From an uncultured Candidatus Cloacimonadota bacterium (lineage in GTDB: Bacteria; Cloacimonadota; Cloacimonadia; Cloacimonadales; TCS61): a DNA stretch of 54,865 nucleotides. The position numbers and the translations under genes were made by a program. This document shows, one piece after another, positions 7,612 through 37,842 of the stretch. The notes under the pieces were generated by a model. The model was not told the DNA's origin. It did not search any database and saw only the letters and a list, made by a program, of their open reading frames with translations. The number at the start of each line of letters is the position of its first letter. The first letter of the stretch is position 1. Location: contig CAZOCS010000002.1 of assembly GCA_964578365.1 (NCBI GenBank), positions 1 through 54,865 of the forward strand. The letters are read 5' to 3'.

Positions 7612-7627
7612 TCTTGGGAGGAAATGA

Positions 7628-8506: not shown

Positions 8507-8515
8507 GAGGATACA

Positions 8516-10462
8516 ATGAAAAGAATCGGAGTATTTATTTGTCATTGCGGTGTAAATATTGCCGGCACCGTTGATGTTGAACAACTTACAGAAAAACTAG
8601 CTGATTATCCGGGAGTTGCCCATATCGAGAATTACATGTTCATGTGTTCTGATCCAGGGCAAAACATTATTAAAAAAGCAATAAAGGATCATAAATTGGA
8701 TAGTGTTGTGGTGGCAGCCTGTTCACCAACTCTACATGAATCCACTTTCCAAAATGCTGTTTCTGAAGTTGACATTAACAAATATCAACTGGAAATTGGA
8801 AATATTCGTGAGCAGTGTAGCTGGGTTCATAGTAACAAAGAAGAGGGAACCAGAAAAGCAGAACTTATCATCAAAACTGCAGTGGAAAAAGCAAAACTGA
8901 ATCAATCGCTTGAACCGGTTTCAGCTCCGCTCACAAAACGAGTTCTTATTATTGGTGGTGGAATTGCAGGAATTCAAGCTGCTTTGGATATTGCAGATGG
9001 TGGCTACGAAGTTATCATGGTTGAAAAGAAACCATCAGTTGGTGGTCACATGATCCAACTCTCCGAAACTTTCCCAACTCTAGACTGTTCGCAATGTATT
9101 CTAACTCCCAAAATGGTCCAGCTTGGAAAGCACAAAAACATTAAACTTTATGTAAATAGTGAAATTGATGAGATCAGCGGATTCATGGGGAATTTCAAAG
9201 CAACCATCAAACGTAAACCGCAATATGTAGATCCTGAAATTTGCACTCTTTGTGATGATTGCACAAATGCTTGTCCTATTGTTGTTCCAAGTGAATACGA
9301 TGAAGGACTGGCTTACCGCAAAGCTATCTATGTTCCATTCCCGCAGGCTATACCCGCTTCCTATACAATAGACACAGAAAACTGTTTGGGATTTGATCCG
9401 ATTGCCTGTGGTGAATGCAAAAAAGCCTGTCTTGCAGAAGCAATTGATTATGATAAAAAGCCTGATACATTCGTTGAAGATATTGGTGCTGTGATCGTAG
9501 CTACCGGTTATGATCTGTATCCGGTGGAAAATATTCCTGAATATGGTTATGGAAAATATCCTGATGTGTTGAATGGATTACAGTTTGAGAGGATACTCTC
9601 AGCAACCGGACCAACAGGTGGTGAAATGTTGCGTCCCTCTGATGGGAAAATTCCTAAAGAGATCGTATTCATACAGTGTTCCGGTTCACGTGATCCCGAA
9701 CGACATAATCCATATTGTTCTAAGATATGCTGTATGTACACCTTAAAACATGCTAAACTTTACAAACATAAAGTTCACGACGGTCAACCTTACATTTTCT
9801 ACATAGATATTCGTTCAGGTGGAAAGAGATATGAGGAGTTTATCCAGGAAGGTGTTTCGGAAGACGGCATTGTTTACATACGTGGTAAAGTGGCCAAGAT
9901 ATATAAAAAGGGTGACAAAATGATAGTGCACGGTATGGATACACTTACCGGGCACAAAGTAAAGATCGAAGCAGATATGGTTGTTCTGGCTCAATCTATA
10001 GTTCCCAGTGAGGGAGCTGATAAACTTTTCAAAACGCTAAAACTGGGTACTGATAGTGATGGTTTCTTGAGCGAAGCACATCCAAAGTTAAGACCATTGG
10101 AGAGTTTACAATCCGGTTTCTATCTGGCAGGAGCAGGCCAGGGGCCAAAAGACATTCCCGAAGCTGTTTCTCAAGCTTCCGGAGCAGCTGCCAAGGTTTT
10201 AGCTTTGATGTCTAATGATGAAGTGATGCACGAACCGATCATAGCAACTGTTGATGAAAATATGTGCTCCGGATGCAGTATCTGCATCGGGACATGTCCT
10301 TATGGAGCGAGAGAATTAGATGAAGACAAGATAGCGATTGTGAACGAGATTTTGTGTGAAGGTTGTGGTGCCTGCATTAGTGCGTGTCCATCGGGTGCTT
10401 CTCAACAAAAGAACTTGACCGATGATCAGATCATGAACATGATAAATGTAATAATAAATTAA
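8516..10462 (+). CDS. hdrA: Heterodisulfide reductase subunit A-like FAD/FeS flavoprotein (bifurcating-type)
   Basis: 648 aa. N-terminal Cys cluster (FICHCGVNI). FAD fold VLIIGGGIAGIQAALDIADGGYEVIMVEKKPSVGGHM. Ferredoxin motifs CTLCDDCTNACP, CGECKKAC, CSGCSICIGTCP, CEGCGACISACP. Confidence 0.9.
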   Translation: MKRIGVFICHCGVNIAGTVDVEQLTEKLADYPGVAHIENYMFMCSDPGQNIIKKAIKDHKLDSVVVAACSPTLHESTFQNAVSEVDINKYQLEIGNIREQCSWVHSNKEEGTRKAELIIKTAVEKAKLNQSLEPVSAPLTKRVLIIGGGIAGIQAALDIADGGYEVIMVEKKPSVGGHMIQLSETFPTLDCSQCILTPKMVQLGKHKNIKLYVNSEIDEISGFMGNFKATIKRKPQYVDPEICTLCDDCTNACPIVVPSEYDEGLAYRKAIYVPFPQAIPASYTIDTENCLGFDPIACGECKKACLAEAIDYDKKPDTFVEDIGAVIVATGYDLYPVENIPEYGYGKYPDVLNGLQFERILSATGPTGGEMLRPSDGKIPKEIVFIQCSGSRDPERHNPYCSKICCMYTLKHAKLYKHKVHDGQPYIFYIDIRSGGKRYEEFIQEGVSEDGIVYIRGKVAKIYKKGDKMIVHGMDTLTGHKVKIEADMVVLAQSIVPSEGADKLFKTLKLGTDSDGFLSEAHPKLRPLESLQSGFYLAGAGQGPKDIPEAVSQASGAAAKVLALMSNDEVMHEPIIATVDENMCSGCSICIGTCPYGARELDEDKIAIVNEILCEGCGACISACPSGASQQKNLTDDQIMNMINVIIN

Positions 10463-10475
10463 TAAAGGTAGTAAA

Positions 10476-10901
10476 ATGAGAAAATTTGAACCAAAGATTG
10501 TTTGTTTTCTTTGTAAATGGTGTACATATGCAGGTGCAGATCTAGCGGGAACATCGCGGCAGCAATATCCACCCAATGGTGTGGTCATAAAAACACTTTG
10601 TTCTTCCAGGATAGATCCGGAACACATTTTATATGCCTTCCAACAAGGAAGTGATGGTGTTTTCATCGGGGGTTGTCATCCTGGTGATTGCCATTATCAA
10701 TCAGGAAATTACAAAACAAAAAGAAGAGTATTACTTCTACAAAGTATGATCAAGCAATTGGGTCTGGATTCAAAAAGGCTTCGGCTGGAATGGATTTCTG
10801 CCAGTGAAGGAAACAAATTTGCTAGTACAATGAAAGAATTCACTGAAACAATTCGCAATTTAGGACCCATTCCCAAATTGGATAATAGAGGAGGAGAATA
10901 G
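10476..10901 (+). CDS. mvhD: MvhD/FlpD-type hydrogenase-to-Hdr electron-transfer subunit
   Basis: 141 aa. KIVCFLCKWCTYAGADLAG...IKTLCSSRIDPEHILYAFQQGSDGVFIGGCHPGDCHY. Confidence 0.9.
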   Translation: MRKFEPKIVCFLCKWCTYAGADLAGTSRQQYPPNGVVIKTLCSSRIDPEHILYAFQQGSDGVFIGGCHPGDCHYQSGNYKTKRRVLLLQSMIKQLGLDSKRLRLEWISASEGNKFASTMKEFTETIRNLGPIPKLDNRGGE

Positions 10902-10904
10902 CAC

Positions 10905-11591
10905 ATGAGTGACAAAAGAGAAATGATAGACATCTATATTGGAGGAGAATTATTTCAGGTTCCTGAAGGCTCAACCATAATTTCCGCGATGGAATATGCG
11001 GGTTTCCAGCTAAAAAAGGGAGTTGGATGTCGTGAGGGTTATTGTGGTGCCTGCGCCACGGTTTATAGAGAAAAAGGAGATTATAAATTGAAGGGCGGTT
11101 TAGCTTGCCAAACAGTTGTAACAGATGGAATGGCCGTTGCTATGATCCCATTTGTTCCTGCTGAAAAACCAACTTATGATCTAGAAGAGCTCGAAGCTGA
11201 TGTGAGCACTTTCACCAAATTGTTCCCTACAGTATTCCGCTGTGTTTCCTGCAATACTTGCACAAAAGCTTGTCCACAGGAAATTCAAGTGATGGATTAT
11301 ATTCAAGCGATAATTCGTGGAGATATCGAACGCGCTGCTAACCTGTCTTTCGATTGTATTCGATGTGGACTCTGTGCTCTGCGCTGTCCAGCTGAGATCG
11401 TGCAATATAACAATGCCATCCTGGCTCGTCGATTGTATGCCAAATATTTGGCTCCTAGAAGCCCTGAATTGGAAGCCAGATTGGAAGAGTTGAAGGATAA
11501 AAAGTATGATAAAGAAATTATAGAATTGAAAAAAATGCCCAAAGATAAACTTTCCGAGAAGTATTACAGTCGGGAAATTAAAATTTCTTAA
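10905..11591 (+). CDS. Iron-sulfur subunit: N-terminal [2Fe-2S] ferredoxin fold plus two complete [4Fe-4S] motifs (FrdB/SdhB-like or HdrC-like)
   Basis: 228 aa. CREGYCGAC...C (Cx4Cx2C then a distal Cys). CVSCNTCTKACP and CIRCGLCALRCP. AGGAGGAG RBS. Immediately followed by the flavoprotein gene. Confidence 0.75.
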   Translation: MSDKREMIDIYIGGELFQVPEGSTIISAMEYAGFQLKKGVGCREGYCGACATVYREKGDYKLKGGLACQTVVTDGMAVAMIPFVPAEKPTYDLEELEADVSTFTKLFPTVFRCVSCNTCTKACPQEIQVMDYIQAIIRGDIERAANLSFDCIRCGLCALRCPAEIVQYNNAILARRLYAKYLAPRSPELEARLEELKDKKYDKEIIELKKMPKDKLSEKYYSREIKIS

Positions 11592-11604
11592 GCAGGAGAG
11601 AAAA

Positions 11605-13275
11605 ATGTATCCAGAATATATGATGGAATCGATCAAGATGGTCGAAAAGACCCGACCACAGCGTTTGGAACTTGCCAAAAAACATGGGAAAAAAGTTTTT
11701 CCTGGTATGACGGAACAGGAGAGGCAAGATGTTTTAGACAACAATCATCCCGATTATCAAAGTGATGCACTCAAGGAATTGAGAATCGGACCAAATAAAG
11801 GCGATAAGATGGTAAATGAAGTGGTTGATGTAATGGAGTCATACCCCCGTAATCACCCTGACACATTCGACCTGAAGAAAATAGATATAGAAACAGACGT
11901 ACTTATCATTGGAGCTGGTTCTGCCGGATTATCTGCAGCACTAGAAGCTTCAGATAGTAAGGCATCTGTAATGTTAATAACCAAGCTTCGTCTGGGAGAT
12001 TCTAATTCGATGATGGCTCAAGGTGGAATCCAGGCAGCCGATCAATTGGATGATAATCCGGTTTTACATTATCTTGATGTAATCGGTGGAGGTCACTTTG
12101 ACAACAAACCTGAATTGGTGGAAGCACTTGTAAAAGATGCAGCTCCATCCATTAAATGGTTAGAGGAACTCGGAGTAATGTTCGATAAAAACGATGATGG
12201 TTCGATGATGGTGAAATCCGGAGGTGGAACGTGTCGCAATAGAATGCATTCCGCTCGAGATTATACCGGAGCAGCTATATGCCGTGTCCTGCGTGATGAA
12301 GTAACCAACCGCCCGGATAAGATCAAGTATCATGAATACACTGCTGCTACAGAACTTATTCTGGATGACAAAGGAAATTGTGCCGGAGCGATCCTTTATC
12401 ATCTGGAAAACAAACAATATAGCATTGTGAAAGCTAAAACTGTGATAATGGCTACAGGTGGTTTCGGACGCTTACATATTCGTGGTTATGAAACATCAAA
12501 TCATTATGGAGCAACTGCTGATGGGCTGGTAATGGGCTATCGTGCCGGCGCAAAACTGATGTATATGGATTCGGTACAATATCATCCAACTGGTGCAGTT
12601 TTCCCGGAACAGATCGTTGGCTTCCTTTGCACAGAAAAAATAAGAGCATTAGGTGCGCAACCTGTCAATAAAGATGGGGAGCTTTTTGTGTATCCTTTGG
12701 AACCCAGAGATATTGAAGCCTCAGCTTTTATTAGAGAATGCAATAATGGATTGGGAGTAGAAACTCCATCTGGATTGAAAGGTATCTGGCTTGATACGCC
12801 ACTTATAGATTTGATCAGTGGTGAAGGATCGATAGAAAAATTTCTTCCTGCTATGCTGCGCCAATACAAACGTTTTGATATAGATGTCCGCAAATATCCA
12901 ATGCTTGTTTATCCAACATTACATTATCAGAATGGAGGATTAGAGATCAATGTCGATGCCGAAACATCCATTCCCGGACTTTATGTAGCAGGAGAAGCTT
13001 CAGGTGGAATTCATGGAAGAAATCGCCTGATGGGAAATTCCCAGCTCGACATAATTGTTTTTGGACGACGAGCCGGAATTAATGCAGCAGCAAAAGTTAA
13101 AAAAGGTATTAAACTTGGCAAATTAAGTTTGGATCATGTAATAAAATATATTAAAGAAGTAGATTCAATTGGTATAGATAAAAAACAGGTATCTCCTGTA
13201 ATTCTTCCTGATTATATTCCGGATCATGTGAAAGCAAAACAACTTTCATCGGAATATCAAGGGAACTTACTCTAA
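11605..13275 (+). CDS. Fumarate reductase / succinate dehydrogenase-family flavoprotein (soluble, probably non-covalent FAD)
   Basis: 556 aa. DVLIIGAGSAGLSAA. SMMAQGGI with Asn134 (12004-12006) where SdhA/FrdA carry the flavinylated His. TEKIRALG (catalytic Arg region). VQYHPTG. YVAGEASGGIHGRNRLMGNSQLDIIVFGRRAG. About 95-aa N-terminal extension before the Rossmann fold. Confidence 0.8.
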   Translation: MYPEYMMESIKMVEKTRPQRLELAKKHGKKVFPGMTEQERQDVLDNNHPDYQSDALKELRIGPNKGDKMVNEVVDVMESYPRNHPDTFDLKKIDIETDVLIIGAGSAGLSAALEASDSKASVMLITKLRLGDSNSMMAQGGIQAADQLDDNPVLHYLDVIGGGHFDNKPELVEALVKDAAPSIKWLEELGVMFDKNDDGSMMVKSGGGTCRNRMHSARDYTGAAICRVLRDEVTNRPDKIKYHEYTAATELILDDKGNCAGAILYHLENKQYSIVKAKTVIMATGGFGRLHIRGYETSNHYGATADGLVMGYRAGAKLMYMDSVQYHPTGAVFPEQIVGFLCTEKIRALGAQPVNKDGELFVYPLEPRDIEASAFIRECNNGLGVETPSGLKGIWLDTPLIDLISGEGSIEKFLPAMLRQYKRFDIDVRKYPMLVYPTLHYQNGGLEINVDAETSIPGLYVAGEASGGIHGRNRLMGNSQLDIIVFGRRAGINAAAKVKKGIKLGKLSLDHVIKYIKEVDSIGIDKKQVSPVILPDYIPDHVKAKQLSSEYQGNLL

Positions 13276-13290
13276 TATTTGGAGGGTTTG

Positions 13291-14298
13291 ATGGCAAAAC
13301 CTAAAGTTGCCTTTTATTGGTGTGCATCTTGTGGTGGCTGTGAAGAAGCGATCGTAGATCTGAACGAAGATATTTTAAAAGTGGCAGATCTGGTTAATAT
13401 TGTTTTCTGGCCATGCGCCATGGATTTTAAATATGAGGATGTGCGCAAAATGAAAGATGGAGAGATCACTGTCTCTTTCATTAATGGAGCAATTCGTACC
13501 GAAGAAAACGAAGAAATGGCAAAATTATTACGCAAAAAATCGCAGTTTGTTATTTCTTTTGGTGCCTGCTCTCACATGGGTGGAATTCCCGGATTAGGTA
13601 ATTTCTGGGATAAGGAAAGCATCTTCGAATCTTCTTATGGAGAATCTTGCCCATCTGTATTGAATCCTGATGGGATTGTACCTCTGGTTAGATCAAAAGT
13701 ATCTGAAGGTGAGCTTACTCTACCGGAATTTCATGATACTGTAAGAAGTCTGGATCAAGTAGTAGATGTAGATTATTATCTACCCGGTTGCTCTCCAGAA
13801 CCATACCTTACTATGAATGCAATTGTCAAATTGCTGTCAGGTGATCTTCCTGCCAAAGGAACAGTGTTGGCTCCGGCAAAATCAATGTGTGATATCTGCA
13901 GCAGAAGTGAAACAAAACCTGAAAAACTCAGTATTAAAGAGATCAAACGCGTAGCAACAGTACAACCAGATCCAGAAGAATGTTTCCTGGCTCAGGGCAT
14001 TATTTGTATGGGACCGGTTACCAGGTTTGGCTGCAAGGAAGAAGGAGATGGTCGCTGCATCAGTGCCAATATGCCATGCCGTGGTTGTTATGGACCACCC
14101 CCAGGCGTTAAAGATGTCGGTGCCAAAATGGTTTCGGCTCTGGCTTCCATTGTTGGATTGGAAGGTGAAGAAGAAATGAGTGATAATGATGTGCAAAGCC
14201 TGATGGATCAAATTCCCGATCCAGCAGGAACATTCTATCGTTTTTCCCTGCCAATTTCAATGATGAGAAGAAAACGTATGACAAGTGAGGAAAACTAA
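13291..14298 (+). CDS. mvhG: [NiFe] hydrogenase small subunit, cytoplasmic Mvh-type
   Basis: 335 aa from ATG 13291 (GGAGGG at 13281-13286). FYWCASCGGCEE proximal-cluster motif. C-terminal Cys-rich region (CDICS, CMGPVTRFGC, CISANMPCRGC). No twin-arginine signal. Confidence 0.85.
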   Translation: MAKPKVAFYWCASCGGCEEAIVDLNEDILKVADLVNIVFWPCAMDFKYEDVRKMKDGEITVSFINGAIRTEENEEMAKLLRKKSQFVISFGACSHMGGIPGLGNFWDKESIFESSYGESCPSVLNPDGIVPLVRSKVSEGELTLPEFHDTVRSLDQVVDVDYYLPGCSPEPYLTMNAIVKLLSGDLPAKGTVLAPAKSMCDICSRSETKPEKLSIKEIKRVATVQPDPEECFLAQGIICMGPVTRFGCKEEGDGRCISANMPCRGCYGPPPGVKDVGAKMVSALASIVGLEGEEEMSDNDVQSLMDQIPDPAGTFYRFSLPISMMRRKRMTSEEN

Positions 14299-14299
14299 G

Positions 14300-15763
14300 A
14301 TGTCAAAAAAAATAACTATAGATCCGATAACTAGATTGGAAGGTCATGGTAAAGTTGAGATATTCCTGGATGAGAAGGGGAATGCTACAAATGCATATTT
14401 ACAGGTTCCCGAACTTAAAGGATTTGAACAATTTTGCATAGGCAGACCTGTAGAAGAACTTCCTAGAATCACTCCGCGAATTTGCGGGGTTTGTCCTACT
14501 ACGCATCATATGGCTGCTACAAAAGCAGTTGATGCGGTTTATAATGTTGTTCCTACAGATACTGCTATCAAAGTACGCCGTGTGATTTATGATGCGTTCA
14601 TGATGGAAGATCATCTTCTGCATTTTTTCTTTTTAGGTGGACCTGATTTTGTGGTTGGTCCTGATGCACCTCCCGGGGAAAGAAACATACTTGGAGTTGT
14701 TGGAAAAGTTGGTGTTGAAATTGGAAAAAAGGTTATCGATATTCGTCGTAGATTACGGTCTGTTATCACAACATTGAGCGGAAGAGTAATTCATCCTGTG
14801 AGCGGACTTCCCGGTGGAGTTTCCAAAGGTATAACAGAAGAACAGAGAGTAGAATTTCTACAAATTGCTAAAGATAGTGTGGAATTTGCCAAGTTTACTT
14901 TGAAAGTTTTTGAAGATATTGTACTTAAAAATAAAACTTATGTAGATCTAATTGTAGGTGATATCTACAAACATAAAACTTATTACATGGGAATGGTGGA
15001 TGAGAACAATCATCCCGATTTTTATGATGGTAAGATCCGGGTTGTTGATCCCGATGGAAAAGAAATAGCCAAGTTTGCTCCTAAAGACTACCTGGATCAT
15101 ATTGTAGAACGTGTAGAACCGTGGAGCTATATAAAATTTCCATATTTAAAAAACGTAGGTTGGAAAGGTTTTGTGGACGGGAAAGACAGCGGTGTTTACC
15201 GAGTTGCACCCTTAGCAAGATTGAATGTAGCAGATGGAATGTCTACACCTCTAGCTCAAGCAGAATTTGAAAAAATGTTCTCAATTCTGGGTGGGAAACC
15301 TGCCCATAATACACTGGCTTTTCACTGGGCCAGATTAATAGAAGTAATGTTTGCTGCCGAACATATGGTTAAACTATTGAAAGACAAATCCATAACCAGC
15401 CCGGATATTCGTCGTATTCCTACAGAAACACCAAAAGAAGGAGTGGGAATTGTTGAAGCTCCCAGAGGTACTCTCATTCATCATTACAAAACAGATGAAC
15501 AGGGAATGGTTACGGGTGTGAATCTGATCGTGGCAACTGTAGGCAACTCTGCAGCTATGTCTATGTCTATAGCCAAAGCTGCTCAGAATCTTATAAAAAA
15601 TGGAGAAGTTAACGATAGTATTTTAAATATGGTAGAAATGGCCTTCCGTCCTTATGATCCTTGTTTGGCTTGTGCCACTCATTCACTTCCAGGTAAAATG
15701 CCACTGATGGTGAACGTATATGACAAGGACAAAAATAAACTTAAAACGATTACAAGGGATTAA
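14300..15763 (+). CDS. mvhA: [NiFe] hydrogenase large subunit, Mvh-type (group 3-like)
   Basis: 487 aa from ATG 14300. ITRLEGHG. N-terminal Ni-binding RICGVCPTTHH. C-terminal DPCLACATH followed by a 26-aa extension, the expected endopeptidase substrate. Confidence 0.9.
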   Translation: MSKKITIDPITRLEGHGKVEIFLDEKGNATNAYLQVPELKGFEQFCIGRPVEELPRITPRICGVCPTTHHMAATKAVDAVYNVVPTDTAIKVRRVIYDAFMMEDHLLHFFFLGGPDFVVGPDAPPGERNILGVVGKVGVEIGKKVIDIRRRLRSVITTLSGRVIHPVSGLPGGVSKGITEEQRVEFLQIAKDSVEFAKFTLKVFEDIVLKNKTYVDLIVGDIYKHKTYYMGMVDENNHPDFYDGKIRVVDPDGKEIAKFAPKDYLDHIVERVEPWSYIKFPYLKNVGWKGFVDGKDSGVYRVAPLARLNVADGMSTPLAQAEFEKMFSILGGKPAHNTLAFHWARLIEVMFAAEHMVKLLKDKSITSPDIRRIPTETPKEGVGIVEAPRGTLIHHYKTDEQGMVTGVNLIVATVGNSAAMSMSIAKAAQNLIKNGEVNDSILNMVEMAFRPYDPCLACATHSLPGKMPLMVNVYDKDKNKLKTITRD

Positions 15764-15809
15764 TAAAATTTGCGATGAAAGCAAAAAAGCAGGAAATTTA
15801 GAGAAATTG

Positions 15810-16262
15810 ATGAGTACTTTAGTTCTTGGTTTAGGAAACACTATTTTGTCTGATGATGGAGTAGGAATTCATATAGCATTTGAGATAAAAAAGAAGTGTG
15901 ATAATATCGATGTATTGGAAGCCAGTGCCGCCGGTTTTCGCGTGATCGACGAAATAATAGGTTATGATAAGCTCATCCTGATAGATTCTATCAAAACAGG
16001 TAAAGTTGAATCAGGAGGATTGCACAGATTCACTTTTGATGAATTCAGCAGAACAATGCATCATACGTCTCCACATGACATTAGCTTGTTCGAAGCATTT
16101 GATATAATGAAAAAAGAAAATGCTGATCTACCTACAAATATTAAAGTTTATGCTGTTGAAGTGGAAGACACATCCACTTTTTCAGAAAATTGCACACTCA
16201 AAGTTGCAGAGGTTATTCCCAAAGTAGCAGAGATCGTAATAATGGAAAATAATTTAACATAG
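15810..16262 (+). CDS. Hydrogenase maturation endopeptidase (HycI/FrhD family)
   Basis: 150 aa from ATG 15810. LVLGLGNTILSDDGVGIH start typical of the family. Lies directly downstream of the large subunit. Confidence 0.8.
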   Translation: MSTLVLGLGNTILSDDGVGIHIAFEIKKKCDNIDVLEASAAGFRVIDEIIGYDKLILIDSIKTGKVESGGLHRFTFDEFSRTMHHTSPHDISLFEAFDIMKKENADLPTNIKVYAVEVEDTSTFSENCTLKVAEVIPKVAEIVIMENNLT

Positions 16263-21307: not shown

Positions 21308-21344
21308 AAATAGGGGCGATTTATAAATCGCCCCTATTTTATTT
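21308..21344. terminator. Bidirectional terminator hairpin between convergent genes
   Basis: ATAGGGGCGA (21310-21319) pairs with TCGCCCCTAT (21328-21337). T-rich on both sides (TTTTATTT downstream on the + strand). Confidence 0.75.
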
Positions 21345-21370: not shown

Positions 21371-22381
21371 CTATTTCAATAGCATTATCTTACTTGAAAC
21401 TTCTAAAGAAGATGTTTTCAAACGCATAAAATAAACTCCACTGGCTTGTGGATTACCATGAGAATCCTTACCATCCCATGTGGTTGTAAATGTTCCTTCA
21501 CTCAGATGTTCATTAACAAGAGTAATAACATTGCGCCCTTTAACATCATAAATTGTAACTTCTACTGCTCCTGGCTCTTCAATGCTGAAATTAATAGTAG
21601 TGCTTGGATTGAAGGGATTCGGGAAATTCGAGATAGTTGTTTTCATTGGAGCAACTAAATTACTTGGTGATTCAACACTTGGAACCAAGTCAGGTAAGTT
21701 CACACGAGTAGTTTGGAAAACATGATGATTTGATCCATCCTCAACCCAGACAATGAGGATGATATTTTCCTGATCCCAGCTTTCATCCAACGTGGTTGTT
21801 ATCTGCATAGTATGAGAATTCCCCTGCATAGTAATATCTGTTCCCATATGGGTAGGAACCATATTACGATCTACAAAGTTCATAGTTTCATAATTTGGAC
21901 CGGTATAAGGAATATTTGTTTCTGTGATAACTACATGAACACGAGGATTAGGCATGTCTTCACCTTCATCCTTTTCAATGGAAATATCCAAGGTAAGTTC
22001 ATTGTCGGTGAGTGATCCTGTAAAATCGATCGTACAAGGAGCAACAGCTGCCATGCGTTCGTTAATGGTTGCTTCTAAAATTGCATGAGTATAAGGCCAT
22101 GTAGGTTCAGGAAGTCCATCGGGTAAAAGTGTAGGATACAAGCTAATTCCTAAAACATTAATCCTGCCCTCAGAACCAGTATGGGCAAATTCATCATTAT
22201 AATGATGATTTGCAACAGCAATAGAATAACCTTCAGCATACATTTGGTCTACCAGCGCCGCGGTAGCAGGGCAGGTACCTCACCAAGTTCCTGTGGCAAT
22301 TTCAAAAAGGACGAATTGCCTTTGTGCAGCATATCCGAAAATAGCTACTAATAAAAAAAGTAAAATTAATAATTTTTTCAT
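21371..22381 (-). CDS. Secreted thioredoxin-like T9SS cargo protein with in-frame TGA at codon 34 (candidate selenocysteine, U-x-x-C)
   Basis: ATG at 22381 preceded by GGAGGAAAAA. Signal peptide MKKLLILLFLLVAIFGYAAQ, then RQFVLFEIATGTW-TGA-GTCPATAALVDQM. The TGA is at 22282-22280, in frame with the 290-aa ORF of the track (starts at 22243). C-terminal sorting domain NFPNPFNPSTTINF...SGVYFMRL...KIMLLK. Confidence 0.65.
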
Positions 22382-22635
22382 TTTTCCTCCTTATTTTGTT
22401 GTAACATTAGATGCAACAATTGTTCCATATAGATAAGCTTTTTATTTTGTTTAGAAATTAATTATATAATTCCTATTATTTAAACAACAATAGATAAATA
22501 TTGTATAAAATTCAAAAAATTATCATACTCAATAAGACAGTTGGTAAATTGAGACTCAAAGAAATATGTACTCTTTTTTCTTTACAATAGCAGCGCAAAT
22601 TCACTGTTTGATTCATAATAAAAAGAGAGGTGTTT

Positions 22636-24330
22636 ATGAAAATTATTATTATTGTTCTAATTATGATGGTTAGTCTTACATTATTTGCTGGTAATTTCGA
22701 ATCATTTCCGGAATTTCAGACACACATAAAAAGTGAATCACAACGTGTTGCCGATATGGAGCTTCATAAGCAGATCAAACAAACCAAAGAGACGCGTGAA
22801 TATGAAATAGGCGATACCCATACTTATTGGCGCTATGACCTATCTGTAATGCCTCCCGGATGGATTCAGATCCCGGCAACATGTCGAGCTGTTGGAGAGC
22901 ATTGTTATGTGTTCGTGGCCGATGAAGAATGGCAAGTTACAATGGACGAAGCAGATGTTCAACAAGTATTCAATTACCTGGAATTTGAAACGATGAATGG
23001 CGACGATTATGGAGTTGTGGAAATGGATACTTTGCATTTTGGTGAGATGCCTGATGAACTGGATAATGATCCCAGGCTCATTGTATTTTATTCTGCTCTT
23101 GGTTCTTATGGCGGAAGCACATTTGATGGATATTTCAGTGCTTATGATCAAGTTACAGAAGCTGAAGCACAACTAATGAATCCACCCGGTCACAGCAATG
23201 AATGTGAGATGATCTATATGACCTGTCATCCATTGAATCCAACCGACCCGATAAGGATTTCTGTTCTTGCACATGAGTTGGAACATCTCATTCATTGGGG
23301 TGGTGATATTAATGAAGAGACTTGGGTAGATGAGGGTTTAGCAGAATTAGCAATGGTTTATTTCGGTATTCCGGATCCCATCTCTCAATTCAATAACAAT
23401 CCCGATAATTCTTTGAATACATGGAATCAGGATTGGGCGGATTATGTAAAAACTATGTTGTTTTTCACATATTTTGCAGAGCAATTTGATGATGGAACAA
23501 TCATCAAGGATTTGGTAAGCGAACCGTTAAATTCTATTTCGGGAATTTCTAATCAACTTGTAGAACATGGATACACAATTCCATTTGAAGCAATATTCAA
23601 TAACTGGACTATTGCAAATTATCTGGATGATCCGGAAGTTGAAGACGGACTATATAATTATGTAAATCTGGAACTTCCCAATTTTAATACAACTCATTAC
23701 CATGCAACATATCCTGCTTCGGGTAGTGGAACTACAAATCCGTGGGCAACTGATTATGCGAGATTGCTTCCTAATGGGCAGGATTTTACTCTGCATCTGG
23801 AAGCGAATCATCCTATTAATTTGGGTGTAATTCGCATGAGTGATGAAGTTGTAACTACAGTAGATTTTTTCAGTGTGGATGATGTGCTGGATATTGATCT
23901 ACCGGAAATGCCAGATGAATATATTCGAATGGTTCTCGTTTTTTCTAATGCAGCTAACTCTAACTTGATCTACAGTTATGAAATTTCTGAGAATACTGAT
24001 GCAGATGATAATATTGTAGAAACTGCAGATTTCAATTTGAAAAATTATCCTAATCCGTTCAATCCAACTACGACGATTAGTTTTGAAACCACAAACTCAC
24101 ACGAATTATCACGAATCGAAATCTATAACTTGAAAGGTCAGAAAGTGAAGAATCTTTCCACGAGCTCGTGTCATCCTGAGTTCATCGAAGGACGAGGGGA
24201 AGCACAATTTAGCATTACTTGGAACGGTGACGATAACAACGGGAAACCGGTTTCTTCGGGAATTTATTACTATAAGTTAGTTATTGATAATAAGGTGATT
24301 GATACAAAGAAAATGTTGTTGGTGAAATAG
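22636..24330 (+). CDS. Secreted HExxH zinc metalloprotease with T9SS C-terminal sorting domain
   Basis: 564 aa from ATG 22636 (AGAGAGG upstream). Signal peptide. LAHELEHLIHWGG...VDEGLAE (gluzincin-like). C-terminus NYPNPFNPTTTISF...SSGIYYYKL...KKMLLVK. Confidence 0.75.
   Translation: MKIIIIVLIMMVSLTLFAGNFESFPEFQTHIKSESQRVADMELHKQIKQTKETREYEIGDTHTYWRYDLSVMPPGWIQIPATCRAVGEHCYVFVADEEWQVTMDEADVQQVFNYLEFETMNGDDYGVVEMDTLHFGEMPDELDNDPRLIVFYSALGSYGGSTFDGYFSAYDQVTEAEAQLMNPPGHSNECEMIYMTCHPLNPTDPIRISVLAHELEHLIHWGGDINEETWVDEGLAELAMVYFGIPDPISQFNNNPDNSLNTWNQDWADYVKTMLFFTYFAEQFDDGTIIKDLVSEPLNSISGISNQLVEHGYTIPFEAIFNNWTIANYLDDPEVEDGLYNYVNLELPNFNTTHYHATYPASGSGTTNPWATDYARLLPNGQDFTLHLEANHPINLGVIRMSDEVVTTVDFFSVDDVLDIDLPEMPDEYIRMVLVFSNAANSNLIYSYEISENTDADDNIVETADFNLKNYPNPFNPTTTISFETTNSHELSRIEIYNLKGQKVKNLSTSSCHPEFIEGRGEAQFSITWNGDDNNGKPVSSGIYYYKLVIDNKVIDTKKMLLVK
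24168..24193 (+). repeat. Short form of the dispersed GTCAYCCTGAGT...ATCGAAGGA repeat embedded in-frame in the protease sorting domain
   Basis: GTGTCATCCTGAGTTCATCGAAGGAC encodes SCHPEFIEG. Its ends match both arms of the element at 49448-49550. Flanked by CTCGT/ACGAG. Confidence 0.55.
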
Positions 24331-26583: not shown

Positions 26584-27270
26584 TTATTCTTTTGCGCCTG
26601 ATTCCTTAAGCAGGGTTATGATATCTGCATGCTCTTCTTCAACAGCGATACTTAAAGGTGTATCTCCTTGTGCTTTTGCATTTACATCAGCATCTACCGA
26701 GATCAAATATTCAACGACTTCGATCTTCCCCCATCTTACGGCAAACATCAGAGCGGTGTATCCTGTTCCATCCTGGGTTACTAATGCATAATTTACATCC
26801 ATTCCTTTATCAATGAGAAACTTAACTGCATCCAGTGATCCGCTATCGGAAAGAACACCAAAGATTGCCTTGATCAATGCGTTTACACCATCTTGTGCAA
26901 TAGGATTAATATCGGCACCTTTTTCTATAAGTAGTTCCATTATTTCAGTAGTCTTAGCGCTTTCTGCTGCCCACATCAACGGAGTGTAATCCCCATGTCC
27001 TTTTAGGTTCACATCTGCTCCATTATCCAATAAAAATTGTACCATATCGATAGAATTATTTCTACAAGCTAAACTCAATAAGCTGGCTTGATAATTTTCT
27101 ACACCTGTTAAATTTGGATCCAAACCTCCATCAAAAAGTTTTTGCAGCGCATCAAAGTCATTTTTATACACAGCATTAGAAGCATCAGATATCTCATCAC
27201 CAAATACAACTTGAATACTGATAATAAATAAGACTAAAATACAAAAAACAATTCTCTTACGAAGTTTCAT
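26584..27270 (-). CDS. Secreted ankyrin-repeat protein
   Basis: 228 aa from ATG 27270 (GGGAGGA upstream). Signal peptide MKLRKRIVFCILVLFIISIQVVFG. Repeats such as LLDNGADVNLKGHGDYTPLMWAA, LIEKGADINP, LISVDADVNAKAQGDTPLSIAV. Confidence 0.8.
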   Translation of the reverse strand: MKLRKRIVFCILVLFIISIQVVFGDEISDASNAVYKNDFDALQKLFDGGLDPNLTGVENYQASLLSLACRNNSIDMVQFLLDNGADVNLKGHGDYTPLMWAAESAKTTEIMELLIEKGADINPIAQDGVNALIKAIFGVLSDSGSLDAVKFLIDKGMDVNYALVTQDGTGYTALMFAVRWGKIEVVEYLISVDADVNAKAQGDTPLSIAVEEEHADIITLLKESGAKE

Positions 27271-27431
27271 AATAACTCCTCCCTTCATTTGTTAGATGAA
27301 ACGTGTCAATCAGATCAATTTGAAACAACCTTCCTAAACCAAATTTACTTTATCGATAGGTCAAGCTAAAATTATACTTGCACGTTTATTATGTAATTTC
27401 AAAGTGTTTTACAGGATACAGGAGAATTATT

Positions 27432-34500: not shown

Positions 34501-35085
34501 TTATTGTAATAATCCTTCATCAAAATCTGTACCGAGATAACTCGGCCAGTCTGCCCATGAACCTTCCTGTTCATCACCATCACTAAAAATAAGCCTGTAA
34601 TCTCTGCTTTGGTGTATATCAATAAAAATATATGTCTTATAACTTGTTACTCTATATTTCCAGATCTGATATTCTTTTTGTGCAAACTTTGTACCTGTTC
34701 CTGTATTCAATTTCAATATTTCAAATGGTTTACCATGTTTGATATAAACTCTACCAATATCTGTTTTCCAACCTTTACTGAAATGTGAATAATGATCATT
34801 GCAATATCTAATTCTTGTAATTACTTCCATAAGAAACTCATTGCTTTCTGTTGCCGGATTTGGATCTTGTGCTTCCCAAAAAGCTGAAATATATTCCCAT
34901 TTATATTCCTTATCAAGTTTCTTGTAGTACTTCCTCTGATTTGGAGATAGGAAGTAGCTTACAAGCTTATATTCATCTTTCAGATCATCGAATACATGAC
35001 CTTTTTTTTGGAAGGTTGGAGCTGGATCTGCTGAAATACCAATAAATAATCCAGCTAAAATTAAAATAAATAGAACTTTTTTCAT
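34501..35085 (-). CDS. GWxTD-domain secreted protein (paralog 1)
   Basis: 194 aa from ATG 35085 (GGAGGT upstream). Signal peptide. FWEAQDPNP, KGWKTDIGRVYIKHGKP. Confidence 0.75.
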   Translation of the reverse strand: MKKVLFILILAGLFIGISADPAPTFQKKGHVFDDLKDEYKLVSYFLSPNQRKYYKKLDKEYKWEYISAFWEAQDPNPATESNEFLMEVITRIRYCNDHYSHFSKGWKTDIGRVYIKHGKPFEILKLNTGTGTKFAQKEYQIWKYRVTSYKTYIFIDIHQSRDYRLIFSDGDEQEGSWADWPSYLGTDFDEGLLQ

Positions 35086-35089
35086 CTTA

Positions 35090-35683
35090 TTACCTCCAAT
35101 AATGTAACGATTCCTCATCAAAAGTTGAGTCAAGTAGATTCTCCCAATATTCTTTCGAACCACCTTGTTTATCACCATCCCAGAAAACAAGTCTAAAATC
35201 TCCATGCTGCTGTAGATCTATAAATAAGAAAGTTTGATAATTTGAAATAACATATTTCCAGATTTGATAATCTTTTGGTTTTAGTACACTAATATGCTCG
35301 GTAGTTAATTCTAATACTTCAAACGGCTCACCAAGCATGATATGAACTTTGCCCATATCTGTTTTCCAACCTTTCTTAAAATGCGAAAAATGTTTGTTTG
35401 AATATTTAATTCTGGTGATGATTTCCTGCTGGAATTCATTGTCCGCTGTTTTCGGATTTGGATCTTGTACTTTCCAAAAAGCAAAAAGAAATTCCCATTT
35501 GTCTTCTATTTTAAGTGTTTTGTAATACTTTTTCTGATTTGTATTAAGAAAATAACTTACAAGCTTGTATTCATCTTTCAAATCACTAAAAACATGACCC
35601 TCTTTTTGGGGAAGCATGATATGCTCTGCAGAAATCCCAAGAGATATCCCAAATAAAATTACTATAAGTAATATTCTTTTCAT
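35090..35683 (-). CDS. GWxTD-domain secreted protein (paralog 2)
   Basis: 197 aa. Signal peptide. FWKVQDPNP, KGWKTDMGKVHIMLGEP. Alignable with paralog 1 over its full length. Confidence 0.75.
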   Translation of the reverse strand: MKRILLIVILFGISLGISAEHIMLPQKEGHVFSDLKDEYKLVSYFLNTNQKKYYKTLKIEDKWEFLFAFWKVQDPNPKTADNEFQQEIITRIKYSNKHFSHFKKGWKTDMGKVHIMLGEPFEVLELTTEHISVLKPKDYQIWKYVISNYQTFLFIDLQQHGDFRLVFWDGDKQGGSKEYWENLLDSTFDEESLHYWR

Positions 35684-37800: not shown

Positions 37801-37842
37801 TTTTCTCCAATTCTTTCTTTAAAATTATTTGTGTTAAAAAAC

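What the first reader, a model, noticed from the sequence alone, without database searches (positions are those of the whole stretch)
21371..22381. In-frame TGA at the first Cys position of a thioredoxin-like CxxC motif in a T9SS cargo protein: candidate selenoprotein
SEEN: a strong start (GGAGGAAAAA-ATG at 22381) opens a signal peptide, then FVLFEIATGTW-TGA-GTCP. The TGA (22282-22280) is exactly in frame with the 290-aa ORF that begins at 22243, giving U34-G-T-C37. The downstream ORF alone has a T9SS sorting domain but no signal peptide, so it is only exportable if translation starts at 22381 and reads through. 13 nt after the UGA the mRNA can form CUACC(G)-loop-(U)GGUAG, which puts a G-rich apical loop about 19-25 nt from the UGA. 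TGA is a normal stop elsewhere in the window (3810-3812, 7200-7202, 7609-7611), so this is not a recoded genetic code. selU at 50731-51759 shows that the organism uses selenium. ESTABLISHED: bacterial selenoproteins very often carry Sec in UxxC/CxxU redox motifs of thioredoxin folds, with a SECIS hairpin immediately 3' of the UGA. By my recollection, relatives of this protein type carry TGTWCxxCP at this spot. INFERENCE: this is a secreted or outer-surface Sec-containing thiol-disulfide oxidoreductase, which would be unusual for T9SS cargo.
Basis: partly seen in the sequence, partly recalled or inferred. Interest (0 to 1): 0.75.

Follow-up and report, generated by a model that had tools for sequence, protein, structure and literature searches.

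The report
Selenocysteine in a secreted HBP35-like oxidoreductase
This gene from an uncultured anaerobe (Cloacimonadota) almost certainly uses an in-frame UGA to place selenocysteine in the redox motif of a thioredoxin-like protein exported by the type IX secretion system; public databases miss this and truncate the gene, but it belongs to a selenoprotein superfamily known since 2008.

Summary
The gene is one 336-codon CDS (22381-21371, minus strand) made of a signal peptide, FVLFEIATGTW-UGA-GTCP, an Omp28-like domain and a T9SS sorting domain.

The UGA is very likely a selenocysteine codon.
- It is kept in frame in 12 distinct orthologues (51-94% identity) from independent metagenomes, and the frame upstream of it evolves like coding sequence.
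- More distant homologues read ...ATGTWCQYCP, with Cys in that column.
- A conserved 7-bp hairpin with an invariant GGN triloop starts 20 nt after the UGA. It meets the published bacterial SECIS geometry and shows compensatory changes.
- TGA is a normal stop elsewhere in the window.
- The organism is a Cloacimonadota member and encodes MnmH/SelU. A contig carrying an orthologue also carries SelB. The literature describes a Cloacimonetes-type tRNA-Sec.

The thing is not new in kind. NCBIfam NF045500, "Omp28-related selenoprotein", is the GOS_C family of Zhang and Gladyshev (2008). It has the same UxxC in the homologous column (hhalign 98.6%). However, the window protein scores 51 bits against a cutoff of 200, and GOS_C lacks a T9SS tail.

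The closest characterised relative is P. gingivalis HBP35. It is a T9SS cargo with proven thioredoxin activity that depends on C48 and C51, and C48 aligns with U34. A redox-active T9SS cargo is therefore not unusual; the selenocysteine is the new part.

Verdict: a genuine, unannotated selenoprotein and a new member of a known kind. Interest is moderate.

The parts
21371..22381 (-). Complete selenoprotein CDS: 336 codons including UGA-Sec at codon 34; stop TAG at 21373-21371
   Evidence: The same read-through architecture is conserved in 12 distinct orthologues.
22386..22390 (-). Shine-Dalgarno GGAGG, 4 nt upstream of the ATG at 22381
22325..22381 (-). Sec-type signal peptide (residues 1-19, MKKLLILLFLLVAIFGYAA; likely cleaved after the A-x-A-like GYA/YAA). 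No lipobox Cys.
   Evidence: Inspection and hydropathy. Orthologues keep the n-h-c form and the terminal 'AA' although 18 of 19 columns vary. No SignalP run was available.
22280..22282 (-). In-frame UGA, predicted Sec34
   Evidence: Invariant in 12 distinct sequences. The column holds Cys in distant homologues, and it aligns with HBP35 C48.
22271..22282 (-). U34-G-T-C37 redox motif (UxxC), followed by the invariant P38
   Evidence: Alignment A3: C16(U), C19 and P20 are invariant across Sec forms, Cys forms and GOS_C.
22249..22266 (-). bSECIS-like hairpin CUACC-GC-GGC-GC-U-GGUAG. Seven base pairs with one bulged U on the 3' side. GGC triloop at 22259-22257, 20 nt after the UGA.
   Evidence: All 12 Sec forms fold to the same hairpin with a GGN triloop at the same distance. 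There are compensatory changes at two pairs. The GCG codons used here are rare in this genome.
22097..22321 (-). Thioredoxin-like N-terminal domain (about residues 21-95), including the invariant H59 and the Y-P83-T 'cis-Pro'-like loop
   Evidence: The family profile hits MJ0307-type thioredoxin 1fo5 (E 8e-7) and HBP35 5y1a (E 5e-9). The AF2 model of Cys homologue P0014 has beta-CxxC-alpha-beta-alpha-beta topology.
21698..22153 (-). Omp28-like beta-sandwich domain (residues 77-228)
   Evidence: PF11551 at 38.8 bits, above the gathering score of 34.9. PDB 2r2c Omp28: E 4e-7 by profile and TM 0.73 by Foldseek.
21383..21625 (-). T9SS type A C-terminal sorting domain (residues 253-333; the protein ends ...KIMLLK)
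   Evidence: PF18962 31.3 against 27; TIGR04183 42.4 against 23; FlgD_ig 37.1 against 27.
21308..21339 (-). Intrinsic terminator (14-bp stem plus T tract) 32 nt after the stop codon, between convergent genes
50731..51759 (-). Context: mnmH/selU, tRNA 2-selenouridine synthase. It shows the organism makes and uses selenophosphate.
   Evidence: NF008750 at 379.8 bits (cutoff 241) and TIGR03167 at 350 bits.

Best explanation
The gene is a single 336-codon CDS. Its UGA at codon 34 is read as selenocysteine.

Proposed decoding mechanism. While the ribosome is at the UGA, a hairpin 14-31 nt downstream (7 bp, GGC triloop 20 nt after the UGA) acts as a bacterial SECIS. It recruits SelB-GTP-Sec-tRNA(Sec), which inserts Sec instead of terminating.

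Proposed route of the product. The pre-protein is exported through SecYEG by its N-terminal signal peptide. It folds in the periplasm into an HBP35-like two-domain body: a thioredoxin-like domain carrying U34-G-T-C37, plus an Omp28-like beta-sandwich. Its C-terminal sorting domain then takes it across the outer membrane by the type IX secretion system. There it is either anchored to the surface or released.

Proposed activity. The selenol-thiol UxxC pair would act as a thiol-disulfide oxidoreductase, most likely a reductase like HBP35, working on extracellular or surface substrates of this anaerobic amino-acid fermenter.

Shown here: the UGA and frame are conserved; the column alternates Sec and Cys; the hairpin is conserved and covaries; the domain architecture; homology to HBP35, Omp28 and GOS_C.

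Inferred, not shown: actual Sec insertion; T9SS transit; the redox activity and its substrates.
For: 1. Conservation of the UGA. It is in frame in 12 distinct orthologous sequences at 51-94% amino-acid identity, from independent ENA, JGI, Logan and NCBI assemblies.

2. Coding signature upstream. In the 14 codons before the UGA, 13 of 14 third positions vary, against 7 and 5 at positions 1 and 2. Pairwise codon differences are 346 synonymous to 178 non-synonymous. The signal peptide keeps its form while its sequence drifts.

3. Sec/Cys column. Homologues at 23-33% identity from Lentimicrobiaceae, Bacteroidales and others read VLFEIATGTWCQYCP. C/U, C+3 and P+4 are invariant in alignment A3.

4. 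SECIS.
- All 12 Sec forms fold to a 7-bp hairpin with a GG[C/U/A] triloop starting exactly 20 nt after the UGA.
- There are compensatory changes: U-A to G-C in L007 and L024, and C-G / A-U / U-G at a second pair. L004 and L021 carry three coordinated changes that shift the register to a perfect 7-bp stem.
- In the fixed register 86.9% of cells are paired, against 25-51% for slid controls. Only 6-7 of 500 shuffles reach the observed values.
- The element meets the published bSECIS geometry: loop of 3-9 nt, stem of 4-16 bp, G in the first two loop positions, spacing of 16-37 nt (PMC13188914).
- GCG makes up only 6.7% of Ala codons in this window, yet GCG-GCG sits in the hairpin and the first GCG is invariant.

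5. The genetic code is standard: 11 of 50 ORFs stop at TGA.

6. Selenium trait. MnmH is in the window. SelB is on the contig of orthologue L003. A Cloacimonetes-type tRNA-Sec is described in PMC5330540.

7. Family.
- hhalign of the Sec clade against GOS_C gives 98.6% probability, E 1e-15, with the U columns aligned.
- GOS_C is a published UxxC selenoprotein family with a Trx-like fold (PMC2398784).
- The family profile hits HBP35 5y1a at E 5e-9, with C48 on the U column. Foldseek with a modelled Cys homologue hits 5y1a at E 3e-10.
- HBP35 has Trx activity that depends on C48 and C51, and it is T9SS cargo (PMC2907840, PMC3120885).

8. Only translation from ATG 22381 gives a signal peptide, and a T9SS cargo needs one.
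Against: - selA, selB, selD and tRNA-Sec are not in this 54.9-kb contig, so the machinery in this particular genome is inferred.
- The hairpin is not unusually stable. The single-sequence fold of the window gives z = +0.61 against shuffles, and its minimum-energy structure is a competing, non-conserved fold. The core hairpin is only -5.1 to -9.0 kcal/mol.
- Cys-form homologues also form assorted hairpins in this GC-rich stretch, although without a conserved GGN loop or position.
- Much of the nucleotide conservation in the hairpin is confounded with conservation of the peptide ATAALVD. Only two pairs covary.
- No Rfam family matches.
- The curated selenoprotein model NF045500 is matched far below its cutoff (51 against 200 bits).
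- The structure model was of a Cys homologue (P0014), not of the window protein, and its CxxC loop had low confidence.
- There are no proteomic or 75Se data.
Confidence: 0.87

Rival explanations
1. The gene is a nonsense-mutated pseudogene, or the TGA is a sequencing or assembly error in place of TGC/TGT.
For: Gene callers and NCBI annotate only the 290-aa downstream ORF. One orthologue (L010, MAG GCA_008633355.1) also carries a frameshift and a divergent GTYPT-U-PACP motif.
Against: The TGA is identical in 12 distinct sequences from independent samples and assemblers, down to 51% identity. Both sides are under purifying selection, and the signal peptide and start codon are retained. A pseudogene would not keep frame, start and hairpin over that divergence.
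Confidence: 0.02
2. The UGA is a real stop. The locus would then make a 33-residue peptide (signal peptide plus 14 residues) and, by reinitiation at ATG 22243, a cytoplasmic 290-aa protein. This would parallel the internal-start cytoplasmic isoforms reported for HBP35.
For: HBP35 does yield 27- and 29-kDa cytoplasmic forms from internal starts (PMC2907840). An ATG lies 12 codons after the UGA in most orthologues.
Against: - That ATG is not invariant; L024 and L025 have ATT.
- No Shine-Dalgarno sequence precedes it.
- The 290-aa product would carry a T9SS sorting domain but no signal peptide, so it could not reach the T9SS.
- It would also lack the first beta-strand and the active-site Cys equivalents of its Trx-like domain.
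- Conservation of U-x-x-C-P and the 12 codons between UGA and ATG at the amino-acid level is unexplained if they are untranslated.
Confidence: 0.04
3. The UGA is read through without selenium. This could be near-cognate Trp-tRNA or Cys-tRNA, or a Cys-charged tRNA-Sec-like species. The hairpin would then act only as a read-through stimulator.
For: Cys would be functionally adequate at this position, as the Cys-form homologues show. Variant tRNA-Sec structures exist in this phylum (PMC5330540). One ENA record of a GOS_C protein is translated with W at the UGA (P0124), but that is a translation-table artefact rather than evidence.
Against: - If Cys were the product, a TGY codon would be simpler. 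Long-term retention of UGA together with a SECIS-geometry hairpin with a GG loop is the signature of SelB-dependent decoding.
- The organism invests in selenium metabolism (MnmH), and a relative has SelB.
- The homologous GOS_C family is an accepted selenoprotein family (PMC13188914).
Confidence: 0.05
4. The organism uses a reassigned code in which UGA is a sense codon (code 4 Trp or code 25 Gly).
For: None beyond the in-frame UGA itself.
Against: Eleven of 50 ORFs in the window terminate at TGA, including well-conserved enzymes whose profile matches end at those stops. No other gene in the window has an internal in-frame TGA.
Confidence: 0.01

Closest known systems
HBP35 (35-kDa hemin-binding protein) of Porphyromonas gingivalis, PDB 5Y1A
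   Same: Same three-part architecture: signal peptide, then an N-terminal thioredoxin-like domain with W-C-x-x-C-P fused to an Omp28-like beta-sandwich, then a T9SS C-terminal sorting domain. It is the best PDB hit of the family profile (E 5e-9 over 210 columns) and of the modelled homologue (Foldseek E 3e-10). HBP35 C48 and C51 align with U34 and C37. Experiments show that HBP35 reduces insulin disulfides better than E. coli Trx, that this depends on C48 and C51, that it complements E. coli dsbA, and that it is secreted by the T9SS and glycosylated on the surface (PMC2907840, PMC3120885).
   Different: HBP35 has Cys, not Sec, and comes from Bacteroidota. Sequence identity is low: the window protein alone does not hit it, and the Sec-clade profile reaches only E 0.0035. 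The hemin-binding role of HBP35 has not been tested or inferred here.
Omp28-related selenoprotein, NCBIfam NF045500 = 'Hypothetical protein GOS_C' (Zhang and Gladyshev 2008)
   Same: It is homologous over about 208 columns (hhalign 98.6%, E 1e-15). It has a signal peptide, a Trx-like fold and UxxC with Sec in the same alignment column (VxVEDFTGLN-U-PYCP against VLFEIATGTW-U-GTCP). It has a small SECIS hairpin with a G-first triloop about 19-20 nt after the UGA. Gene callers truncate it in the same way.
   Different: The window protein scores 51 bits against the curated cutoff of 200, and its clade scores about 50 bits. True GOS_C sequences score 337-575 bits. Identity is about 20%. GOS_C proteins end in thrombospondin-3 repeats plus a dockerin-like module and have no T9SS sorting domain. 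They are marine (GOS, TARA). The SECIS sequence differs. The nearest relatives of the window clade outside itself are Cys forms with T9SS tails (28-33% identity), not GOS_C (19-21%). Sec may therefore have arisen independently.
Omp28 outer-membrane lipoprotein family (Pfam PF11551; NCBIfam NF033782; PDB 2R2C)
   Same: The central beta-sandwich domain matches PF11551 above its gathering score. It also matches 2r2c.
   Different: The protein is not a lipoprotein, since it has no lipobox Cys. It scores 33.7 bits against the NF033782 cutoff of 150. It also carries a T9SS tail and Sec.
Sec-containing thioredoxin-fold oxidoreductases with UxxC (Trx, Grx, DsbA-like, thiol:disulfide interchange proteins)
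   Same: Sec replaces the N-terminal nucleophilic Cys of the CxxC motif at the start of helix alpha1 of a Trx-like fold. A bSECIS lies immediately downstream (PMC13188914 Table 1 and Fig. 2).
   Different: Those proteins are cytoplasmic or periplasmic single-domain proteins. This one is fused to an Omp28-like domain and a T9SS signal, so it is predicted to be on the cell surface or extracellular.

Membership tests
Bacterial selenoprotein gene (Sec-UGA plus bSECIS) | In-frame UGA conserved among orthologues, with coding sequence on both sides | tested here: met
   12 distinct sequences at 51-94% identity. Coding signature upstream of the UGA.
Bacterial selenoprotein gene (Sec-UGA plus bSECIS) | Cys-containing homologues with Cys aligned to the UGA | tested here: met
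   L013-L019, L027, P0014 and P0019 read GTWC-x-x-CP. HBP35 C48 also aligns there.
Bacterial selenoprotein gene (Sec-UGA plus bSECIS) | bSECIS geometry: apical loop of 3-9 nt, upper stem of 4-16 bp, G in the first two loop positions, 16-37 nt between UGA and loop (PMC13188914 Fig. 2) | tested here: met
   Loop GGC (3 nt), 7-bp stem with one bulge, 20 nt spacing. The same holds in all 12 Sec forms.
Bacterial selenoprotein gene (Sec-UGA plus bSECIS) | bSECIS free energy of -7.5 kcal/mol or lower | tested here: inconclusive
   The core hairpin is -5.1 to -9.0 kcal/mol (-6.8 in the window). The 51-nt stretch from the UGA is -13.9, but through a partly different fold. The z-score against shuffles is +0.61.
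Bacterial selenoprotein gene (Sec-UGA plus bSECIS) | Genome encodes SelA, SelB, SelD and tRNA-Sec | not testable with these tools
   None of these is in the 54.9-kb contig. Indirect evidence: MnmH in the window, SelB next to orthologue L003, and a Cloacimonetes-type tRNA-Sec in the literature.
Bacterial selenoprotein gene (Sec-UGA plus bSECIS) | Selenium physically present at the UGA-encoded residue | not testable with these tools
   Needs 75Se labelling or mass spectrometry.
NCBIfam NF045500 Omp28-related selenoprotein (GOS_C) | HMM score at or above the curated cutoff of 200 bits | tested here: not met
   51.2 bits for the window protein and 50.4 for orthologue L004. GOS_C sequences score 337, 434 and 575 bits.
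NCBIfam NF045500 Omp28-related selenoprotein (GOS_C) | UxxC with Sec in the homologous column of a Trx-like N-terminal domain | tested here: met
   hhalign 98.6%, with TGTWC(U)GTCP aligned on TGLNC(U)PYCP. BLASTP E 1e-5.
NCBIfam NF045500 Omp28-related selenoprotein (GOS_C) | C-terminal thrombospondin-3 and dockerin-like region (model positions about 280-377) | tested here: not met
   The window protein has a T9SS sorting domain there instead. GOS_C members show no TIGR04183 hit.
Pfam PF11551 Omp28 | HMM score at or above the gathering threshold of 34.9 bits | tested here: met
   38.8 bits over residues 77-228.
NCBIfam NF033782 Omp28 family outer membrane lipoprotein | HMM score at or above 150 bits, and a lipoprotein signal peptide | tested here: not met
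   33.7 bits. The signal peptide ends FGYAAQ with no Cys.
T9SS type A cargo | C-terminal sorting domain (TIGR04183 / PF18962) above cutoff, at the extreme C-terminus | tested here: met
   TIGR04183 42.4 against 23; PF18962 31.3 against 27; residues 253-333 of 336.
T9SS type A cargo | N-terminal Sec signal peptide for periplasmic entry | tested here: met
   It is present only if translation starts at 22381 and reads through the UGA. This was judged by inspection, not by SignalP.
T9SS type A cargo | Organism encodes the T9SS machinery (PorK/L/M/N, Sov, PorU/V) | not tested
   The machinery is not in the window. A second CTD-bearing protein is adjacent (22630-24330). The literature lists Cloacimonadota among FCB phyla that may have a T9SS (PMC11285876).
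HBP35-like thioredoxin-fold T9SS cargo | Trx-like domain with CxxC, Omp28-like domain and CTD, homologous to 5Y1A | tested here: met
   Family profile E 5e-9 over chain residues 35-268. Sec-clade-only profile E 0.0035. Foldseek with the modelled Cys homologue E 3e-10.
HBP35-like thioredoxin-fold T9SS cargo | Disulfide-reductase activity and hemin binding | not testable with these tools
   Biochemical properties, shown only for P. gingivalis HBP35 (PMC2907840).

The most novel reading that the evidence does not exclude
This clade could be the first recognised case of a selenoprotein delivered to the cell surface or the medium by the type IX secretion system, that is, an extracellular selenol-based disulfide reductase. 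It may have arisen by a Cys-to-Sec switch independent of the marine GOS_C family, because its nearest outgroups are Cys forms. In an anaerobic amino-acid fermenter it could reduce disulfides of extracellular protein substrates ahead of proteolysis; a T9SS-sorted HExxH protein is encoded divergently next door. Alternatively it could serve HBP35-like cofactor acquisition.
Probability: 0.4. Interest if true: 0.55.

Novelty: new member of a known kind. Interest (0 to 1): 0.4.

Why it matters
1. Annotation. Every public copy of this gene that I found is truncated to the ORF after the UGA and named only 'T9SS type A sorting domain-containing protein'. Its signal peptide and active site are therefore lost. 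The curated selenoprotein model NF045500 does not capture this clade, so a sister model or a lower cutoff would fix a systematic mis-annotation in Cloacimonadota MAGs.

2. Biology. The finding links two literatures that do not currently cite each other. One is the orphan 'GOS_C' selenoprotein family, whose function is unknown. The other is the experimentally characterised HBP35, which has thioredoxin activity, surface display through the T9SS and a role in heme utilisation. The link gives GOS_C-type selenoproteins a testable functional hypothesis.

3. Localisation. If T9SS export is confirmed, selenoproteins would extend to the outer surface of FCB-group bacteria. The literature searched here holds no paper connecting the T9SS with selenoproteins.

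The mechanism of Sec insertion itself is conventional.

Tried and rejected
- Rfam. The gathering-threshold scan of the whole window and the permissive scan of 22150-22400 found no SECIS family. The only hits were chance matches to rliB and a snoRNA.
- ARAGORN. No tRNA or tRNA-Sec was found in the window or in 14 related loci.
- Single-sequence folding. It gave no significant stability (z = +0.61), and its minimum-energy structure is a non-conserved competitor. Stability was therefore dropped as an argument in favour of conservation and covariation.
- Homologue search with the N-terminal domain only. It returned just 7 proteins, because of word-index limits.
- Structure prediction of the window protein.
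  - I modelled the Cys homologue P0014 instead.
- phmmer of the window protein alone against the PDB. It found only FlgD-like hits on the CTD, so a family profile was needed.
- Look-up of U-containing full-length sequences. An X-substituted L012 sequence is not in the collection.
- Other selenoprotein genes in the window. I found none. The HdrA, MvhD-like and NiFe hydrogenase genes are Cys forms (DPCLAC in the large subunit), and no other ORF pair is joined by a TGA.
- Literature searches. 'Omp28 + selenoprotein', 'Cloacimonas + selenocysteine' and 'type IX secretion + selenoprotein' returned nothing relevant.
- Rejected explanations: pseudogene, sequencing error, code reassignment, and stop followed by reinitiation. 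See the rival explanations.
Full report
**1. Observation**

On the minus strand, GGAGG (22390-22386) precedes ATG 22381. The frame reads MKKLLILLFLLVAIFGYAAQRQFVLFEIATGTW-TGA-GTCPATAALVDQMYAEGY... and runs without another stop to TAG at 21373-21371. The TGA at 22282-22280 is codon 34. The ORF that gene callers report starts at Met47 (22243).

A six-frame scan for ORF pairs joined by one TGA returned seven candidates. This is the only one that corresponds to coding sequence on both sides; the other six lie in frames that overlap real genes or join unrelated ORFs.

Eleven of 50 ORFs in the window end in TGA, so the genetic code is standard. The ORF at 50731-51759 is MnmH/SelU (379.8 bits, cutoff 241). 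Every descriptive statement in the finding is therefore confirmed.

**2. What the protein is**

With U replaced by C for searching, the 336-aa product matches three families above their cutoffs:
- Pfam Omp28: PF11551, 38.8 bits against 34.9, residues 77-228.
- The T9SS sorting domain: PF18962, 31.3 against 27; TIGR04183, 42.4 against 23; residues 253-333.
- FlgD_ig.

NCBIfam also gave a sub-threshold hit to NF045500, 'Omp28-related selenoprotein' (51 bits, cutoff 200).

A family profile (A3) searched against PDB sequences found three relevant hits:
- P. gingivalis HBP35 (5y1a), E 5e-9, over profile positions 5-214 and chain residues 35-268. HBP35's VVLEVFTAEW-C48-GY-C51-P lies on the U-x-x-C-P columns.
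- Omp28 (2r2c), E 4e-7, for the C-terminal half.
- MJ0307-type thioredoxin (1fo5), E 8e-7, for the first 80 residues.

A profile of the Sec clade alone keeps the same two top hits, but weakly (E 0.0035 and 0.017).

It shows beta-[CxxC]-alpha-beta-alpha-beta...alpha followed by a beta-sandwich, with pLDDT of 55-91 over residues 50-240. Foldseek ranks HBP35 first (E 2.9e-10) and Omp28 at TM 0.73.

Across Sec forms, Cys forms and GOS_C, the invariant residues are the U/C, C+3, P+4, a His (H59) and the Pro of G-I-x-x-Y-P-T. From my own knowledge, that last motif resembles the thioredoxin cis-Pro loop.

**3. Is the UGA decoded?**

(a) Orthologues. All close database homologues start at the same Met after the UGA. 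Reading their contigs upstream shows the same signal peptide, RQ[FY]VLFE[IV]xTGTW, the TGA and then [GP]xCP. This holds in L001, L002, L003, L004-L006, L007, L008, L009, L011, L012, L020, L021, and L024 and L025. L010 keeps the TGA but has a divergent motif. That makes 12 distinct sequences at 51-94% identity from ENA, JGI, Logan and NCBI assemblies.

(b) Coding signature upstream.
- In the 14 codons before the UGA, 13 third positions vary, against 7 and 5 at positions 1 and 2.
- Pairwise codon differences are 346 synonymous to 178 non-synonymous.
- The signal peptide varies in 18 of 19 columns but keeps its K/R-rich start, hydrophobic core and terminal 'AA'.

(c) Sec/Cys pair. Homologues at 23-33% identity read VLFEIATGTW-C-QYCP. 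They come from Lentimicrobiaceae, Bacteroidales and other MAGs (L013-L019, L027, P0014, P0019).

(d) SECIS.
- The RNA CUAC-N-GC-GGN-GC-U-N-GUAG (window 22266-22249) folds in all 12 Sec forms. It makes a 7-bp hairpin with at most one 3'-side bulge, and a GG[C/U/A] triloop begins 20 nt after the UGA.
- Two pairs carry compensatory changes: U-A to G-C in L007 and L024, and C-G / A-U / U-G at the second pair.
- L004 and L021 carry three coordinated substitutions that slide the register into a perfect 7-bp stem.
- In the fixed register 86.9% of cells pair, against 25-51% when the partner is slid by 1-3 columns. Only 6-7 of 500 column shuffles reach the observed values.
- The geometry satisfies the published bSECIS model (PMC13188914 Fig. 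2).
- GCG accounts for 6.7% of Ala codons in the window, yet GCG-GCG forms the top of the stem and the first GCG is invariant.

Caveats on the SECIS.
- The hairpin is not unusually stable (z = +0.61).
- The window's full-length minimum-energy fold is a competing, non-conserved structure.
- Cys forms also make miscellaneous hairpins in this GC-rich stretch, though with no common loop or position.
- Peptide conservation (ATAALVD) explains part of the nucleotide conservation.
- No Rfam family matches.

(e) Selenium trait.
- The window encodes MnmH, which needs selenophosphate.
- The contig of orthologue L003 encodes SelB. The 646-aa product carries the SelB beta-barrel and WHD3 Pfam domains, and its C-terminal fragment hits TIGR00475.
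- The taxon is Candidatus Cloacimonadota (L011 at 94% and L012 at 89% identity). A 'Cloacimonetes type' tRNA-Sec is described for it (PMC5330540).
- SelA, SelB, SelD and tRNA-Sec are not on this contig. Their presence in this genome is inferred, not shown.

**4. Mechanism**

Shown: the architecture, the conservation and the SECIS-like element.

Inferred:
- SelB-GTP-Sec-tRNA(Sec) binds the hairpin and inserts Sec at codon 34.
- The signal peptide directs SecYEG export.
- The CTD directs T9SS translocation and probably PorU-type cleavage and surface attachment, as shown for HBP35 (PMC3120885).
- U34 and C37 form a selenol-thiol redox pair. It would act as a disulfide reductase or isomerase on the outside of an anaerobe. 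The precedent is rHBP35, which reduces insulin faster than E. coli thioredoxin in a manner that depends on C48 and C51, and which complements dsbA (PMC2907840).

The substrate is unknown. A divergently transcribed neighbour (22630-24330) is another T9SS-tailed protein with an HELEH motif. This suggests, weakly, a link with extracellular proteolysis.

**5. Rivals**

- Pseudogene or sequencing error is excluded by (a) and (b).
- Code reassignment is excluded by stop-codon usage.
- Stop plus reinitiation at Met47 is unlikely for several reasons.
  - That ATG is ATT in L024 and L025.
  - It has no Shine-Dalgarno sequence.
  - The product would carry a T9SS tail without a signal peptide.
  - The 12 codons between UGA and ATG are conserved as protein.
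- Selenium-independent read-through cannot be excluded computationally. It does not explain why UGA and a SelB-type hairpin are kept where TGY would do.

**6. Comparison with what is known**

NF045500 is the 'Hypothetical protein GOS_C' family (UxxC) in Table 1 of the 2026 review (PMC13188914). [quoted passage not shown]

GOS_C sequences taken from that paper's supplement score 337 and 434 bits on NF045500. They align with the window protein at 20% identity (E 1e-5). Profile against profile, the match is 98.6% probability (E 1e-15), with the two Sec positions in the same column.

The window clade differs from GOS_C in several ways.
- It scores only about 50 bits on the curated model.
- GOS_C proteins end in thrombospondin-3 repeats and a dockerin-like module, with no T9SS tail.
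- Their SECIS (CGCGA-GUU-UCGCG) differs in sequence although its geometry is similar.
- The nearest outgroups of the window clade are Cys forms with T9SS tails (28-33% identity), not GOS_C (19-21%).

Membership verdicts:
- Member of Pfam Omp28.
- Member of the T9SS type A cargo class, by sorting-domain criteria.
- HBP35-like in architecture.
- Not a member of the NF045500 equivalog.
- Works like a UxxC Trx-fold selenoprotein.

**7. Novelty and score**

The kind of thing (a UxxC selenoprotein of the Omp28/HBP35 superfamily with a conventional bSECIS) is known. A redox-active T9SS cargo is also known.

New here:
- A Sec form of the T9SS-sorted branch, in Cloacimonadota.
- Public annotation misses it: MCK5051046.1 and its cluster mates are 290-aa 'T9SS type A sorting domain-containing protein'.
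- The link between orphan GOS_C selenoproteins and the characterised HBP35.

No paper in the searched library connects the T9SS with selenoproteins.

I rate it a new member of a known kind, with interest 0.4. My confidence that the UGA encodes Sec is about 0.87.

Noticed in passing
window 22630-24330 (+): The divergently transcribed neighbour is a 566-aa protein with a signal-peptide-like N-terminus, an HExxH motif (VLAHELEHLIHWGGD) and a T9SS sorting domain, but no Pfam catalytic-domain hit. It may be a novel secreted metallopeptidase. A similar 554-aa CTD protein is the neighbour in L001.
   Followed up: partly
window 7204-16262 (+): Gene cluster of an HdrC-like ferredoxin, HdrB-like CCG protein, HdrA (648 aa), MvhD/VhuD-like protein, an Fe-S protein, a TfrA-like fumarate-reductase flavoprotein, VhuG/VhuA-like [NiFe] hydrogenase subunits and a maturation protease. 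It looks like a hydrogenase/heterodisulfide-reductase-type complex coupled to a fumarate-reductase-like flavoprotein. The hydrogenase large subunit has DPCLAC (Cys, not Sec). The cluster is syntenic in MAG GCA_008633355.1 (L010).
   Followed up: partly
window 34501-35205 and 35090-35683 (-): Two overlapping ORFs each hit the GWxTD domain (PF20094). This could be a frameshifted or split gene, or a programmed overlap.
   Followed up: no
window 26584-27288 (-): A 234-aa protein made almost entirely of ankyrin repeats (Ank_2, 204 bits), which is uncommon in free-living bacteria.
   Followed up: no
window 44204-45811 (-): A 535-aa ORF with no Pfam hit, inside a cluster that looks like amino-acid (lysine-type) fermentation genes: saccharopine-dehydrogenase-like proteins, a class III aminotransferase, a thiolase and CoA-transferase subunits (36673-48542).
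   Followed up: no
L010 9747-10060 (MAG GCA_008633355.1, SWBY01001666.1): This orthologue keeps the in-frame TGA but reads GTYPT-U-PACP instead of GTGTW-U-GTCP. It also has a frameshift about 30 codons downstream. It is either a decaying copy or an assembly error.
   Followed up: partly
L028-L031 2443-2985: In marine GOS_C (NF045500) loci, a 180-aa Redoxin/AhpC-TSA/thioredoxin-family (TlpA-like) gene lies immediately downstream of the selenoprotein gene, followed by a DUF6029 protein. It could be a redox partner. The window gene has no such neighbour.
   Followed up: no
P0124 (ENA) against the GOS_C reads: One public GOS_C-family protein is deposited full-length with W at the Sec position (FTGLN-W-PYCP). 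The UGA was evidently translated as Trp, which is an annotation artefact and could mislead Cys/Sec column analyses.
   Followed up: no
Sec-form orthologues L004, L009, L012 (419 aa) and L008 (513 aa), against the window (336 aa): The clade varies by zero, one or two Fn3-like modules of about 83 aa inserted between the Omp28-like domain and the T9SS tail. L007 (P0013) instead continues into an unrelated NamZ_N-like C-terminus and may be chimeric.
   Followed up: partly
window 1-54865: The window is a complete public contig. The exact 290-aa ORF is recorded on a contig of 54,865 bp in NCBI and Logan.
   Followed up: no
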